Below are positions 1 through 57,000 of a DNA stretch of 64,000 nucleotides, piece by piece. The DNA is taken from the NCBI GenBank assembly GCA_963514005.1, contig OY740808.1, positions 12,648,001 through 12,712,000 of the forward strand. Reading direction: 5' to 3'. Source of the stretch: Raja brachyura. Lineage: Eukaryota. Made by a program: the position numbers. The stretch's first letter is position 1; each line of letters opens with the position of its first letter.

Positions 1-3000
1 AGGATAGATGCAGATCAACTCTAGCATTGAAGTGCTGGGGGAGGGTTTGATTGTAAGGGGAAATATACGAGATGCTGCCTGACCAGCATTTTGTGTCTGC
101 TTTCGATTAATAAAAACAGCATTGATGTACAGAGGAATTTTGGGAGCCAAGTCTATGTCTGAGTGGTGAGAACGCATATTTTATGTTTTCCTTCATTGGG
201 CAGGGCATTCAGGATAAGGATAGGCGCGTCATGATGCTACTTTTAGGACTTTTGTTAGGCTGCATTTTGTGTACTGCCATCATTTCCTGTCGCCCCAATA
301 CTAGATGGAAGTGGAGGCCTTGGGAAAGGCGCAGAGGATGTTTACCAGCATGATACCTGAATTAGGGGTATTAACTACGAGCGAGGTTGGACAGAATCGG
401 GTTTTTTTAATCTGTAACCGTTGACGATGAGGGGAGACCGGCTAGAAATATGTAAAATTATGAGAGTTATAGATAGGGCAGAGAATCATTACCATTTCCA
501 CCCAGAATGGAAATATCGTGGACGAGATGACATAGCTTTAAGGTGAGAGACGCATGGACATTTTATATACAGAGGTTGGTGAGGACCCGGAAGGCGTTGG
601 CGAGGGTGGTGGTGGCGGCACAAGCAACAGTGGCAATTGTAAGACTTCTGGATACGGATCATGAGCACGAAGATAAGATTTGGTTTTGGCATCATGTCGG
701 CAAAGACATGGAGTGCCGAAAGGCTTGTTCGTGTGCTGTGCTGTACTATGTTCAGCGCTTTGTGGATACTATAAACTTTAGTTGCACTCATCAATGAGGA
801 GAAATAACGTCTGCACCTTTCCTGCCAAGACCACTAAGAGTTTCATATATTACAGTGGCTGATATATTATATACTGTGGCGCACCTGGTAGAGCAGCTGC
901 CTCGACAGCGCCAGAGACCAGGGTTCGATCCTGAGCTCAGGTGCTGTCTGTGAGGAGTTTAAACATTCTCCACGTGTGTCGCGGGTTGCAGTTCCTCGCA
1001 GCGTGCACTTATCCCGCTCATCAGCTCAGCAGGAACCAACCAAAAACTTCAGTACCTTTATTAGGCGAGGAAAGTAAAACTACGTGTGATACTCCATGTG
1101 TGCTAGCGCCCTATATAAAGGTAGAAAGACCATATTACTCTCACTCCCAACCAGCCCCACCCATTTAATTCCCAGATGAAATAGCTTGGAATTGCTAAGT
1201 GAATAGTATCAGCAAGGTCACATATAACGATTACTGTCTGTCCTCGAATGCGTTTCTACATGAGCGCGCCATTTTGTTCGTGTGTGCGCGTGTGCGCGAC
1301 TATATGAACCAATTTATAATCACACCAGTTTATAACATAACGTTCGGCGCCATTTATCACCGATTCTTCCATAAGGTAAAATAATGAAGGTTGATTAAAT
1401 ATATTTGATTTTCTCTGATCAGAAATGAAAATCCAACAAATGTATTGCTCATAAGATTGAATTATTGATTTTAGTCGAGAGTTGTATTTGAAAATGTTAA
1501 TAACGTGGGTAAGCAAAATAAAACTGAATGTAATCTTTAAACCACTGTATTTTAATTAATATTTGGGAATGCATCTAACAGATTGAATAACATTGGAGTT
1601 TCAATTCACAACGAGCTGCTTCGATGGAATGACGTTTGCAAACAGCGAGACAAAGGACAATTTTAAGGCAAATGCTAGTCGATAACAGAGAATATTTGTA
1701 TATCAATTTTTGACAAATGAAAGACGGAGAAAAACTATTTTTCAGCTTGATTAGTTGGAATCTATAAGTTTTACAGACAGCCGGACCTGGCGATGTTTCC
1801 GTGCACCGGGCTTGCCCGCGACTCGTGTTTAACCACACAGGAGTAAAGCTCGTGTGAGTTCCAGACTGTGACTGGCAGAGTCAGGTAACTGCTCGCACTG
1901 AACGTGTTGTCCGCCTCCTGTTGGATTGGGCTGGTTTCAACGCCATCACTTCTCGCACTGCCGTCCACAGTCCAGTCAATTTCCACAGCACCCGGATTAA
2001 ACCCGTTCACCAAACACACCAGGGTGGCGGTTCCCTTTCCCGTCATTTCATGCGTTGAAGGTCCAAGGACGGACACCGCGGGGGGCTGAGGTTCTACTTA
2101 AAATAAAGTCACAGATTAGTCGGGCTAGGAGAACTGCTTCGGTTGAAACATTAACTTTGTTAAAAAAATACAGTTGGTATAGCATGGATTCAGGGCTGGA
2201 TCAACCATTAAGCAAAATAAGCTCGTGCATCAAGGGAAGGGGGGCACCACAGAAATGGTAAATGGTTTACGGCACAAAATAATTCACTTTAAACTTGCGA
2301 CAATGATATTCGAAGTGGTTTATGCGATCGGAAATATAATTTCAACTATGCAACAAGGCAGGCTGGTTGCCTTATCTCTACTAAGTATAGAAGCAGATGT
2401 GTTACGTAAGATTCATTTTGAGGATTTGATCAAAGACTTTGCAATAAAAAAAAGTAGAAAACTTTTCAAATATAAATAAAGTGGAAGTATACAAAAATAA
2501 ACATTATTTTCCTTCTTACTGTTAGTTTTGTTTCATTTTGAAAAATAAAAAATATTTTATGGTTTATTATTGTTTTATTTTGAATTACATATATATATTG
2601 CACCAAAATCTTTTAAGTGCTTTATGGGTCTTAATCCGGCCCTGCATGGATTCATTCGTTCCAGTGAGATACCCCAAAAGTAACTGCTATTTATGGCAAT
2701 GGGACAGAATATACGCAATAGCGTAAAATATATTATTTCGGCAGTGTTTTTATTTGATCCCCAGTGTATTATTTCCATTGGCTTCAGCTACAATAAAAAA
2801 CCCCCAGTGTTTTACCCGACAGACAGTTGCGGGTTTTCATTGCAGCCAAAGTTCCACTAAACTCGCTTAAATCTTTAGTTTTCTTTAAATACATTCCCTT
2901 AATTCATCTGCTCATTTATTAAGTCCAAATACCGAAATGTTACTAATGGTTGGATTTTAGCGACAAGAATATTTTGCCGTTTTTGCCATCGATGAACAGA

Positions 3001-54000: not shown

Positions 54001-57000
54001 GGTAATTCAGATTGAGTCTCTTCAATCTTACTATAACAAGTTATTTCTCTGTTTGTTGGTTCTGTGATTCCACACCGCTGCTTTGAAGAATGTCGCGCAT
54101 GCGTGCTGGCGGGTTCTTCACGAAATCCCTCATCGCAACTCCTCATAAAATAAAGATCAACCTTCGAACTGGTAAGTTCTCGTTTAATCTTACTATTAAA
54201 CTTGAACCAGCACATTCATTGGATAGACAGCGTTTACAATAAAACCGTTTCCAATACATAATATTCGATGAAAATTAAAACTGCGAAGTTTTTGGTTGTT
54301 TATTTATGTTACTATCCACCATTCCGTTTATTTATTTACATATTCGCCTATTTTCCCATTTTTATTGTTCTATTTATTTATCCACCCGTGTATTCGTTTA
54401 TGTCCTTAGTTATCTATTTATTTATTTATTTATTTATTTGTTGTTTTTGTGTTTTTTTTCCCTTCCCCTCCTCTGCTTGTGCCCCAGCCGTATTGACACC
54501 TATTTATCCCCCACTCCCTCCCCTTCCCCTTATATTCCTTCTTCTGTCTTCACGATTCGAACTGCTATCCTTAGATCACACCTTTTGTCTTTTCTTATTT
54601 GGCCTTTGTCCAACCATCAGCCAATCACCCGCCACCTCACTGTATCCACCTACTTGTGATGCTTAGTCATACCCCGCCTCTCTTCCAGCTTTCTCCTCCA
54701 CCCCCACCATAATCAATCAGAAGAGAGGTCCCGATTCTAAACGTCACCTATCCATGTTCTCCCGAGGGTTCCCCACTAATTTGTGTAACATTTCGTTCTG
54801 TTGTCACCTGGAAGAAATGAATGATCCAAGTTTCTCAGCTCAGCGCGCAAGTTTTTCACCATCAAATAAAATGGATCGCGATTTTTTACTGGGATTTGCC
54901 TTTAGTCTCGTATTCAACCACACAGGAGTAAAGCTTGTGCAGTTTCCAATCTGAGGCTGGCAGAGGGCTGTCCGTCTCATGCTGGACCCGCTTGGTCTCA
55001 ACGCCATTCCTTCTCGCAGTTTTGTCTGCAGTCCACTCAATGTCTACACCCCGCTTACCGAACACACCAGGATAGCCCGTCCATTTACCGTGACTTCGTT
55101 CGGCGAAGGCGGCAGAACCGACCTTCAATAAAAGTTGGGAAACTACTTCAGAAACATTACGCTTTGCGATATAATTATCAGAATGTCTCTCACTCTATCA
55201 GCGGTTGATGCTCAGAGTTTTCTTTCCAGGGCCGATGTATTATATAACATATTTTCTAGCTTTAAAGTAGGAGAGGGGACGTTTGAAGGGGGTACACTTT
55301 GCATGTCTTTTTTAAACAGAAAGCGTGGAACGCTTTGGTAGCAGAAGCGGTAGAAGTAGATACCGTGCAAGGTTCAAGAGGCATTTAGGCAAGCACGTTA
55401 ACAGATAGGGAATGGAGGGATATAGACATTATATTTGGCAGGCAGATGGCATTAGTGTAAATTGGCAATAGGTTCGAACAGACATCGTGGGCCATCGTGG
55501 ATAGATATGAAGTTATGATACTGACATCGTGTTTTACAGCATTCACGCGGATGATGAGCAAGAGAGGCCGACAGCATTATGTGTGGCATGAGTGTAAGTG
55601 CATGATTTTCTCGCCGGTCCTGGCGCTCACATATAGAAATTTTCGAAAGGCAACGCTAAAATAATGTAATTACATTACGACACTGGAGAAAATGCGGCCT
55701 CCCCCACCCCCGTCCTTATTTTCTTGTAATTTTCTCTCTCTCCTGGATATTTAATCTCCGTTTGATTCACTTTGCAATGTATCTTCACTAAGGGTATTAG
55801 AGCAATAGATAGGGATGGGAAATCGATGCATTGTCTGGCCAACAATACATTAATCCCCAAAATAAATCAATGGATAGGGATTAATTCAGCTAAAAAAACA
55901 CAAACGGACAGTGTTTGTTAACGTGTAGGAAGGAACTGCAGATGCTGGTTTAGATCTAAGATAGACACAAAATGCTCGAGTAACGCAGCGGGAAAGGAAG
56001 CATCTCTAGATTCGGGTCTGAAGAAGGGTCTCGGCGGGAAAGGTCACAAATTCCTTCTGACCATATATGCTGTCTGTCCCGCTGAGTTGCTCCAGCATGT
56101 TGTATCTAGTGTTGGTTAACGTCTGTTTCGTTTTTTTCCAGTCTAAGAGAAATATTGATTTTTTTGTTCCTGCAATATAGTTATTGAGTCCACCGAACGT
56201 TTCGATATATGTCAAAATCATGGAAGGGCAAGGCACAATTACGCCGCTAACATGATATTTGAGAAGCAAGTGGATGACCTCAGATTCGTCCGAGAAACTG
56301 AGTCGTTCCTCGCCAAGTCCTACAGTAAGATTGTTACGCCTAAGGTGGTGGAAGAGAGAAGGTAGGTGACGGTGATAAAGGGAGGGGAACATGGAATGAA
56401 AAGGTCCCCGTGTGTTGTACCTCTTGTGAACAGGTTAACGCACTCAGAAGCTGTCGGGACAGAAGACGTTATCACACTGAGCGGCGGACTGGCTTGCGAA
56501 ACAAAAACGGCTGTTTAGTCAAAACCAAAGAGGCCAACGTCAGGCAACGCCATTGTAGTTAGAGATTCCATTGTGAGAGGTACGGACAGGAGTTTCTGCA
56601 GGAACAGACGGGATTCGAGGATGGTGTGCTGCTTTCCTGGTGCCAGGATCTAGGATATCACGGACAGAGTGCAGAAAATCCTCAAGGGCGAAGGTGAACA
56701 GCCGGAAATGGTAGTGCATGTCGGCACAAATGATGTCTGAAAGAAGGGGATGAATATTCTGCAGCGTGACCTTAGAGAGATCGGAAAAATGCTGAAAAGC
56801 AGGACCTCCAGGGTTGTTATCTCCGGTTTGCTTCCATTTCCTCGTGCTGGCGAGAGCAGGAACAGGGAGATACGGACCTGAATGTGTGGCTGAGGAACTG
56901 GTACAGGGGGCAGGGATTTGGATTCCTAGATCACTGGGGAGTAAGGGGGAACTGTATGAAAGGATGGATTGCATCTGAACAGGTGGGGGTCCAGCATTCT

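What the first reader, a model, noticed from the sequence alone, without database searches (positions are those of the whole stretch)
1771..55122. Tight tandem array of pre-rearranged (germline-joined) IgL genes showing birth and death
Seen: three intact L-intron-VJ-intron-C genes plus two dead C exons, all on the same strand, with C exons only ~8.5-16 kb apart. V and J are fused in frame with no RSS while both introns persist, so these are not retrocopies. Established: germline-joined VJ clusters are typical of elasmobranch lambda/type II light chains and are attributed to RAG activity in germ cells. Inference: this is a RAG-independent, fixed light-chain repertoire expanding by unequal crossover, with three ages of paralog visible (C2/C3 youngest, then C1, then C4/C5).
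[Added by the scan's program, not by the reader: the finding's places include an assembly gap (unread letters, written N; its length is only estimated) at 7795 to 7966, 22309 to 22463. Whether the letters on both sides are continuous or in frame is not known: test that first.]
Basis: partly seen in the sequence, partly recalled or inferred. Interest (0 to 1): 0.72.

Follow-up and report, generated by a model that had tools for sequence, protein, structure and literature searches.

The report
Skate germline-joined lambda light-chain gene array
This stretch of skate-like DNA carries three intact antibody lambda light-chain genes whose V and J parts are already fused in the genome, plus two dead constant-region exons, an arrangement that has been textbook for sharks and skates since the 1990s.

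Summary
The minus strand holds three complete leader-intron-VJ-intron-C genes of 238, 238 and 239 codons. All splice junctions are phase 1 and all donors are GT. Two broken C exons lie at 30047-30370 and 54895-55163. The window contains no RSS.

The genes are cartilaginous-fish type II (lambda) light chains from a skate-like batoid. The best hits are Rhinoraja at 92% and Amblyraja at 88%; sandbar-shark lambda is 71-74%. Each intact gene has its own counterpart in other skate genera. Gene 3's joined V-J lineage, CDR3 included, is shared with a sawfish and a stingray. The joints are therefore inherited, not somatic, and most of the paralogs are old.

Neither assembly gap touches an exon or intron, but two of the four inter-C distances cross a gap.

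"Fixed repertoire" and "expanding" are overstated. The finding is already known and of low interest.

The parts
4358..4406 (-). Gene 1 leader exon (ATG at 4406; 16 codons plus 1 nt; donor GTGAGT)
   Evidence: 94% identical to residues 1-16 of Amblyraja P0011
3888..4232 (-). Gene 1 fused V-J exon (345 nt; CDR3 AVWKDAFI, J motif FGKG; donor GTAAGT)
   Evidence: Pfam V-set E 6e-18; 91% to P0011 residues 18-131
1771..2093 (-). Gene 1 C exon including the stop codon (ends ..SGCL)
   Evidence: C1-set E 1e-24; 90% to P0011 residues 133-238
4502..4548 (-). Gene 1 promoter block: inverted CCAAT (CTGATTGGC), octamer variant ATTTGACT, TATA-like ATAAGG
   Evidence: motif names are recalled and function is inferred
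20422..20470 (-). Gene 2 leader exon
19945..20289 (-). Gene 2 fused V-J exon (CDR3 AVWINPLI, FGKG)
   Evidence: V-set E 5e-17; 90% to Amblyraja P0007
16772..17094 (-). Gene 2 C exon including the stop codon
   Evidence: 92% to Rhinoraja P0001
30047..30370 (-).
   Evidence: 92.9% nt to the gene 2 C exon, flanks 87.6-88.9%; homology to gene 2 runs 29281-32443 against 16044-19211 and then stops
41516..41564 (-). Gene 3 leader exon
41053..41400 (-). Gene 3 fused V-J exon (348 nt; CDR3 AMWKSGLI; J motif FAKG)
   Evidence: V-set E 8e-16; 93% to Amblyraja P0015, 86% to Pristis P0047, 82% to Hemitrygon P0054; clade support 100
38548..38870 (-).
   Evidence: 89% to P0015
41667..41674 (-). Perfect Ig octamer ATTTGCAT upstream of gene 3, preceded by an inverted CCAAT at 41696..41692
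54895..55163 (-).
   Evidence: 46-53% identical to lambda C domains over its longer piece and 58-68% over its shorter piece
7795..7966 (.). Assembly gap 1, between genes; left flank ends in a multi-copy LINE fragment
22309..22463 (.). Assembly gap 2, between genes, 1,839 nt upstream of the gene 2 ATG

Best explanation
The window is part of the immunoglobulin lambda (type II, NS3-type) light-chain locus of a skate-like batoid. Each gene is a self-contained minicluster: a promoter with a CCAAT block and an octamer, a leader exon, a short intron, one exon in which V and J are already fused in frame, an intron of 1.8-2.9 kb, and a single C exon ending in the cysteine that bonds to the heavy chain. 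With no RSS, the genes can be transcribed and spliced into a complete light chain without V(D)J recombination (inferred). Diversity then comes from the number of paralogous genes and, going by the literature on joined shark and skate light chains, from somatic hypermutation (not tested here). The joints are inherited in the germline, and at least gene 3's joint predates the split of skates, sawfishes and stingrays. The family evolves by birth and death. Old paralog lineages are kept under purifying selection, while occasional tandem duplicates decay. The dead C at 30 kb is a young partial copy of gene 2, and the dead C at 55 kb is a much older wreck. Retrotransposons fill the spacers.
For: Shown here. 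The exon-intron structure is consistent, with phase-1 junctions throughout. Separate exons map onto residues 1-16, 18-131/132 and 133/134-238/239 of annotated 238/239-aa skate lambda chains. V-set and C1-set domains are present. The window has 0 RSS. Nearest relatives are named lambda chains: Rhinoraja 92%, Amblyraja 88%, Leucoraja 86%, Pristis 86%, sandbar-shark lambda 71-74%, chimaera IgL 66% (136 proteins at E<=1e-10 among 701 candidates, 120 listed). Orthology: g1+P0011 has support 98, g3+P0015 has support 98, and g2 with the dead C3 sits in a skate clade with support 91. In the VJ tree, g3+P0015+Pristis P0047+Hemitrygon P0054 has support 100. CDR3 is conserved across these counterparts. 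CDR3 length falls in classes 5, 8, 9 or 11 in 101 of 105 family members where the motif was found, out of 120 examined. dN/dS is 0.19-0.50 in frameworks, 0.26-0.43 in C exons and 0.54-0.81 in CDRs. Genes 1 and 2 are homologous over the whole unit. Gene 3 matches them only in exons. The dead C3 matches gene 2 over 3.3 kb. In related skates, 8 of 9 listed Rhinoraja and 9 of 9 listed Amblyraja family members lie on one contig of 34.8 and 38.2 Mb respectively.

From papers. [quoted passage not shown] PMC4279169 section 2 says the same (passages). Joined skate light-chain genes are expressed and potentially somatically mutated (PMC2192082, abstract only). Germline joining is attributed to RAG activity in germ cells (PMC2193156, passages).
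Against: No expression data could be examined, so transcription, splicing and hypermutation are inferred. The tissue that was sequenced is unknown, and germline status rests on cross-species conservation of the joints. Genes 1 and 2 carry a two-mismatch octamer variant (ATTTGACT), and gene 1 has only ATTAAA, not AATAAA, within 700 nt after its stop. Gene 3 has FAKG in place of the usual FGXG J motif. WRC/GYW hotspot density is not higher in CDRs than in frameworks (0.165 against 0.143, p 0.37). The isotype was assigned by identity to named lambda chains and not by a tree that includes kappa, sigma and sigma-2 references. One family member (P0089) is auto-named 'kappa ... like' by its source. 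The order and spacing of gene 1, gene 2 and the rest depend on two scaffold joins.
Confidence: 0.9

Rival explanations
1. The fused V-J exons are primordial. On this view type II genes were never split by the RAG transposon and were not re-joined by RAG in germ cells. This concerns origin only; present-day function would be the same.
For: All lambda/type II genes are joined in every cartilaginous fish studied. The joints fall in a few discrete, taxon-spanning CDR3 length classes. Gene 3's joint predates the batoid radiation. No split relative or RSS remnant is present in the window.
Against: The exons carry a recognisable J segment (FGKG/FAKG followed by a J-type donor) in the position expected of a V-J join. 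For another shark isotype, joined genes nest among split ones and have RAG-type junctions (PMC2193156, passages). From recall only, lambda genes of bony vertebrates are split. Several CDR3 length classes fit several joining events as well as they fit one.
Confidence: 0.08
2. The array is an assembly artefact: alleles or haplotigs laid side by side, or contigs wrongly scaffolded.
For: Gene 1, gene 2 and the remainder lie on three contigs separated by N gaps. Gap 1 begins at the end of a multi-copy LINE fragment.
Against: Genes 1 and 2 differ by dS 0.22-0.28 and about 20% in introns and upstream DNA, far beyond allelic variation. Each has a different counterpart in Amblyraja. The dead C3, gene 3 and the dead C5 share one uninterrupted contig. 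Related skates have many such genes on a single chromosome-sized contig.
Confidence: 0.03
3. The joined state comes from somatic rearrangement in lymphocytes in the sequenced tissue and is not germline.
For: The tissue source is unknown.
Against: The junction sequences are conserved with counterparts in other genera and orders. All three genes have the same CDR3 length. There are no split copies and no RSS in 64 kb. A consensus assembly would not be expected to fix clonal rearrangements (inference).
Confidence: 0.02
4. The three 'intact' genes are silent relics that merely have not yet picked up stop codons.
For: The octamer is degenerate in genes 1 and 2, gene 3 has FAKG, and no expression data were available.
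Against: dN/dS is well below 1 in frameworks and C exons. All splice sites, cysteines and the C-terminal Cys are intact. Counterparts at about 90% identity are kept open in other skates, and FAKG itself is shared with the Amblyraja counterpart.
Confidence: 0.05

Closest known systems
Cartilaginous-fish type II (lambda, NS3) light-chain clusters, for example the sandbar shark lambda genes
   Same: One leader, one fused V-J exon and one C exon per cluster, with no RSS. C exon protein identity to sandbar-shark lambda is 71-74%. Reviews state that all lambda genes are joined in all species studied.
   Different: Nothing of kind. These are one skate-like species' copies, at most 93% identical to any protein in the database searched. 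The original sandbar-shark genomic-clone paper (PMC47676) is not held, so intron sizes could not be compared.
Annotated 'immunoglobulin lambda-1 light chain-like' genes of Amblyraja radiata, Rhinoraja longicauda and Leucoraja erinacea
   Same: They correspond exon for exon, at 238/239 aa. Gene 1 matches P0011 at 94/91/90% (leader/VJ/C) and gene 3 matches P0015 at 88/93/89%. Gene 2's best matches, which differ by exon, are 81% (P0004), 90% (P0007) and 92% (P0001). Many of these genes share one chromosome-sized contig.
   Different: Their DNA could not be read here, because no vertebrate genome collection was available. Gene order, spacing and pseudo-exons could not be compared.
Skate type I (sigma-2) light-chain genes (Anderson et al. 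1995)
   Same: [quoted passage not shown]
   Different: They are a different isotype, with at least 89 clusters reported. The window's genes group with lambda.
Nurse shark NS4 (kappa, type III) germline-joined genes (Lee et al. 2000)
   Same: In-frame V-J joints inherited in the germline, attributed to RAG activity in germ cells, with some pseudogenes.
   Different: In NS4 only about 10% of genes are joined, and they nest among split genes. In lambda, all known genes are joined.

Membership tests
Cartilaginous-fish type II / lambda IgL minicluster | One V-set domain and one C1-set domain, with a single C exon | tested here: met
   Pfam V-set in 3 of 3 VJ exons and C1-set in 3 of 3 C exons
Cartilaginous-fish type II / lambda IgL minicluster | Leader, V-J and C within a few kb as one cluster with canonical phase-1 splice junctions | tested here: met
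   Units span about 2.6-3.7 kb from ATG to stop. Donors are GTGAGT/GTAAGT and acceptors are AG. Exons cover the relatives end to end.
Cartilaginous-fish type II / lambda IgL minicluster | V and J fused in frame in genomic DNA, with no RSS | tested here: met
   Continuous open V-J exons; 0 RSS-like sites in 64 kb
Cartilaginous-fish type II / lambda IgL minicluster | Sequence groups with reference lambda/type II chains and not with kappa, sigma or sigma-2 | tested here: inconclusive
   71-74% identity to named sandbar-shark lambda, and the genes sit inside a family rooted on chimaera IgL. No kappa, sigma or sigma-2 references were put in a tree.
Cartilaginous-fish type II / lambda IgL minicluster | C-terminal cysteine for the bond to the heavy chain, and the intradomain cysteines | tested here: met
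   C exons end ..SGCL..SGCL and ..SSCM. V has C...YYC and C has C...SC. The role of the terminal cysteine is established knowledge that I recall.
Cartilaginous-fish type II / lambda IgL minicluster | Joined configuration present in non-lymphoid (germline) DNA | not testable with these tools
   Indirect only: the joints are conserved with counterparts in other genera and orders.
Cartilaginous-fish type II / lambda IgL minicluster | Expressed in B-lineage tissue | not testable with these tools
   No transcript data were available. Promoter motifs and polyA signals are present.
Birth-and-death multigene family | Pseudogenes beside functional paralogs, with paralog lineages older than the species splits | tested here: met
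   Two dead C exons. Genes 1 and 3 each pair with a distinct Amblyraja gene. The gene 3 lineage is shared with sawfish and stingray.
Birth-and-death multigene family | No homogenisation (concerted evolution) among paralogs | tested here: inconclusive
   Gene 3 against genes 1 and 2: dS is 0.93-0.99 in VJ but only 0.38-0.50 in C. The C data nevertheless do not reject the VJ-tree grouping (p-AU 0.67).
Processed retrocopy | No introns | tested here: not met
   Leader introns are 125, 132 and 115 nt. J-C introns are 1794, 2850 and 2182 nt.

The most novel reading that the evidence does not exclude
Individual germline-joined lambda genes are kept as one-to-one counterparts, with almost unchanged CDR3, across very deep splits. 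Gene 3's CDR3 reads AMWK-x-x-LI in a skate-like species, Amblyraja, a sawfish and a stingray. These would then not be interchangeable substrates for hypermutation. They would be germline-encoded light chains of fixed specificity or fixed heavy-chain pairing, an innate-like arm of the antibody system. The skate-specific FAKG J motif would be a retained functional change.
Probability: 0.2. Interest if true: 0.45.

Novelty: already known. Interest (0 to 1): 0.13.

Why it matters
It matters little as a discovery. Germline-joined lambda clusters are the textbook condition in sharks, skates and chimaeras, and the counterpart genes are already annotated in sister skate genera. The modest value is descriptive. 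The window gives base-level spacing for this species: 8.5 and 16.3 kb on uninterrupted sequence and about 13-15 kb across gaps. It shows retrotransposon-filled spacers and a young orphan C exon that dates one duplication. It also shows that one joined lineage, junction included, predates the split of skates, sawfishes and stingrays. A 2025 paper still calls the genomic distribution of these miniclusters 'not well known', so a systematic cross-species map could be useful.

Tried and rejected
(1) Different histories for V-J and C exons (C homogenisation). In the free C tree, gene 3's C did not group with Pristis P0047 and Hemitrygon P0054. The AU test, however, did not reject that clade (p 0.67), and the constrained tree scored 7.95 log-likelihood units better. 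I dropped the idea. The lower dS in C than in VJ stays unexplained.

(2) V-J, leader or J remnants upstream of the two dead C exons. A sensitive tblastn (word size 2, E up to 50) gave only noise, with best E 0.2. blastn showed the homology to gene 2 ending at 32443.

(3) RSS. None was found. The single CACAGTG heptamer, at 41417, lies in gene 3's leader intron and has no nonamer.

(4) Collinearity of gap flanks through other repeat copies. Gap 1's left flank ends in a LINE copy. Its right flank (8182-8766) matches 25146-25728, which is a different unit, so continuity was not shown. Gap 2's immediate flanks have no other copy.

(5) AID hotspot enrichment in CDRs was not significant.

(6) Pfam found no family for 4 of 10 spacer ORFs.

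(7) Papers PMC47676 and PMC3129705 are not held. Only the abstract and reference list of PMC2192082 are held, and a term search of it found nothing.

(8) Scripts failed or were mis-set through my own errors. They were redone.

Not done. Exons were not joined into a spliced protein. No structure or complex prediction was run, since the domains are unambiguous. No comparison with vertebrate genome DNA was possible, as no such collection was available.

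
Full report
**What the window is.** The window is 64,000 nt, 42.7% G+C, with CpG observed/expected of 0.64. It has three runs of N: 7795-7966, 22309-22463 and 62780-62925. It is not human. The closest protein relatives of its genes are from skates.

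**Checking the observation.** A stop-to-stop ORF list and a tblastn of the window's own frames against the window show five C-type exons and three V-J-type exons, all on the minus strand. I read the DNA directly and fixed the exon bounds programmatically.

| Gene | Leader | V-J exon | C exon (with stop) | Codons |
|---|---|---|---|---|
| 1 | 4406..4358 | 4232..3888 | 2093..1771 | 238 |
| 2 | 20470..20422 | 20289..19945 | 17094..16772 | 238 |
| 3 | 41564..41516 | 41400..41053 | 38870..38548 | 239 |

- Leader exons end T|GTGAGT and V-J exons end A|GTAAGT.
- Acceptors are polypyrimidine-AG, and every junction is phase 1.
- Leader introns are 125, 132 and 115 nt. J-C introns are 1794, 2850 and 2182 nt.
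- V and J are a single open exon in each gene: ..YYCAVWKDAFIFGKGT.., ..YYCAVWINPLIFGKGT.. and ..YYCAMWKSGLIFAKGT.. .
- A scan for a heptamer, a spacer of 12 or 23 +/-1, and a nonamer on both strands found 0 sites. Fifty block shuffles gave a mean of 0.48.
- Pfam gives V-set for the three V-J exons and C1-set for the three C exons.

**The two dead C exons.**
- The exon at 30047-30370 has the same acceptor as gene 2 and a single 1-nt insertion. Otherwise it reads through to ..SGCI.
- The exon at 54895-55163 has a 13-nt and a 24-nt deletion, a frameshift and an early stop before the terminal cysteine.
- Neither has any V-J or leader upstream, even in a very permissive search.

**The gaps, tested.** No exon or intron contains N.
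- Gap 1 lies 3,389 nt upstream of the gene 1 ATG and 8,806 nt downstream of the gene 2 C exon.
- Gap 2 lies 1,839 nt upstream of the gene 2 ATG.
- No reading frame is therefore at stake. The order of the three contigs and two of the four C-to-C distances (15,001 and 13,275 nt) do rest on scaffolding.
- The other two distances (8,501 and 16,347 nt) are on uninterrupted sequence 22464-62779.
- Gap 1's left flank ends inside a LINE fragment that has several other copies in the window, which is a typical repeat break. Gap 2's immediate flanks match nothing else.
- Continuity was not shown.

**What the genes are.** I searched exon by exon. The exons were not joined into a spliced protein at any point.
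- The gene 2 C exon found 136 proteins at E<=1e-10 among 701 candidates, of which 120 were listed.
- The top hits are 238-aa 'immunoglobulin lambda-1 light chain-like' models from Rhinoraja longicauda (92%), Amblyraja radiata (88%), Leucoraja erinacea (86%) and Pristis pectinata (86%).
- Further down the list are sandbar-shark 'Ig lambda chain' (71-74%) and chimaera light chains (66%).
- Mapping each window exon separately onto these proteins gives end-to-end coverage with only the two split codons missing. Gene 1 matches Amblyraja P0011 at residues 1-16, 18-131 and 133-238 (94, 91 and 90%). Gene 3 matches Amblyraja P0015 (88, 93 and 89%). Gene 2 matches several skate genes, with best identities of 81% (leader), 90% (V-J) and 92% (C).
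- This validates the exon model. It also shows that the same joined genes are predicted from the genome assemblies of other skates.

**Age and mode of evolution.** For the trees I used 76 of the 120 listed proteins: batoids, Heterodontus, Carcharhinus plumbeus and chimaeras. The other 44 (other sharks, Squalus and one unnamed protein) were left out.
- In the C-exon tree, gene 1 pairs with P0011 and gene 3 with P0015, each with support 98. Gene 2 and the dead C at 30 kb sit in one skate clade with support 91.
- In the V-J tree, gene 3, P0015, Pristis P0047 and Hemitrygon P0054 form a clade with support 100. Genes 1 and 2 fall in a skate-only clade of 11 rows with support 96.
- The alignment shows that the junction itself is conserved in this lineage: AMWKSGLI, AMWKNILI, AMWKNGLI and AMWKDALI.
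- Across the family, CDR3 length is 5, 8, 9 or 11 in 101 of the 105 sequences where I could locate the motif. The motif was not found in 15 of 120. The classes recur in skates, rays, sharks and chimaeras.
- The joints are therefore inherited, and at least one is older than the split of skates, sawfishes and stingrays.

At the DNA level:
- Genes 1 and 2 are homologous across the whole unit, including about 1.2 kb upstream, at roughly 77-82% identity.
- The dead C at 30 kb matches gene 2 over 29281-32443 against 16044-19211. The match stops 726 nt short of where V-J should be, next to retroelement sequence.
- Gene 3 matches the others only in its exons.
- The dead C at 55 kb matches only weakly.

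Pairwise measures:

| Comparison | dS, V-J | dS, C |
|---|---|---|
| Gene 1 vs gene 2 | 0.22 | 0.28 |
| Gene 3 vs genes 1 and 2 | 0.93-0.99 | 0.38-0.50 |

- dN/dS is 0.19-0.50 in frameworks, 0.26-0.43 in C exons and 0.54-0.81 in CDRs.
- The dead C3 is 92.9% identical to the gene 2 C exon, 87.6% in the intron and 88.9% in the 3' flank.

This gives four age classes rather than three. The intact genes are under purifying selection. The only recent duplication left a dead, orphan C exon.

**Signals.** All three promoters share CTGATTGGC, an inverted CCAAT.
- In gene 3 a perfect ATTTGCAT follows it. In genes 1 and 2 the sequence is ATTTGACT. ATAAGG comes next in all three.
- AATAAA lies 266-305 nt after the stop of gene 2, the dead C3 and gene 3. 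Gene 1 has only ATTAAA within 700 nt.
- The motif names are recalled, and their function here is inferred.

**Literature.**
- PMC4279169 (section 2, passages) says the same and attributes joining to RAG expression in germ cells.
- PMC2193156 (passages) documents RAG-type germline joints in nurse-shark NS4. It lists sandbar shark, skate and nurse-shark NS3 as isotypes in which all genes are joined and cDNAs exist.
- PMC2192082 (abstract only): all skate type I genes are joined, expressed and potentially somatically mutated.
- PMC12227049 (passages): miniclusters of one isotype lie together in chromosome-level assemblies, and their genomic distribution 'is not well known'.
- Lee et al. 2002 on hypermutation in shark light chains was seen only as a reference-list entry.
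- Supplements are closed. Table S1 of PMC12227049 may hold IgL coordinates that I could not see.
- Searches returned no paper that describes skate lambda cluster spacing. Most subscription papers are not in the library, so this is weak evidence that none exists.

**On 'fixed repertoire'.** Serine codons are AGY in 12 of 20 CDR positions against 2 of 30 framework positions (Fisher p 6e-5). The three genes are paralogs, so these counts are not independent. WRC/GYW density does not differ between CDRs and frameworks (0.165 against 0.143, p 0.37). Together with the Anderson 1995 abstract, this argues that the repertoire is germline-templated and likely to be diversified somatically. No direct evidence was available.

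**Verdict.** It is a segment of a skate-type lambda light-chain locus made of germline-joined miniclusters evolving by birth and death. That is the known, textbook state for this isotype, and the counterpart genes are annotated in sister genera. It overstates fixity and ongoing expansion, and it lumps two different ages together.

Noticed in passing
window 41053-41400 (gene 3 V-J exon): The J motif is FAKG instead of the near-universal FGXG. Among 105 family members with a recognisable motif, only the Amblyraja counterpart P0015 shares it. It therefore looks like a retained skate-lineage change and not decay.
   Followed up: partly
window, gene 3 against genes 1 and 2 (exons): Synonymous divergence is about twice as high in the V-J exon (0.93-0.99) as in the C exon (0.38-0.50). 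An AU test gave no sign of different tree histories. Partial gene conversion of C, or stronger codon constraint, remains possible.
   Followed up: partly
window 4502-4548 and 20561-20608 against 41659-41696: Genes 1 and 2 carry ATTTGACT where gene 3 has the perfect octamer ATTTGCAT. All three share the inverted CCAAT block CTGATTGGC just upstream.
   Followed up: no
window 49702-53701 (+): A DIRS-like retroelement with long open frames: reverse transcriptase in 51009-52292 (RVT_1, E 6e-23) and a tyrosine recombinase in 52607-53701 (Phage_integrase plus SAM-like domain). It may be a young insertion between gene 3 and the old dead C exon. The label 'DIRS-like' is from recall.
   Followed up: partly
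window 6141-7790, 8676-10144, 11556-12753, 25675-27262, 28310-29277, 35428-36024, 57135-60500: There are many fragments of one LINE family (RVT_1 and endonuclease hits) in both orientations, 68-91% alike. They fill most of the spacers and border gap 1 and the 3' end of the dead-C3 duplication.
   Followed up: partly
window 32613-33320 (-): A 235-aa open frame lies close to the point where dead C3's homology to gene 2 stops. It has related copies at 27750-28298, 15685-16159 and 11122-11551 and no Pfam family. From recall only, it resembles the endonuclease end of a Penelope-type element.
   Followed up: no
window 48746-49431: A stretch with long overlapping open frames on both strands, just upstream of the DIRS-like element. 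I did not examine it further.
   Followed up: no
window 54262-54666 and 63032-63361: Low-complexity T-rich or AT-rich stretches give long spurious ORFs. There are seven AATAAA matches at 54299-54438, downstream of the old dead C exon.
   Followed up: no
window 62780-62925: A third assembly gap lies outside the finding's coordinates. Its left flank is a short repeat with many copies in the window.
   Followed up: partly
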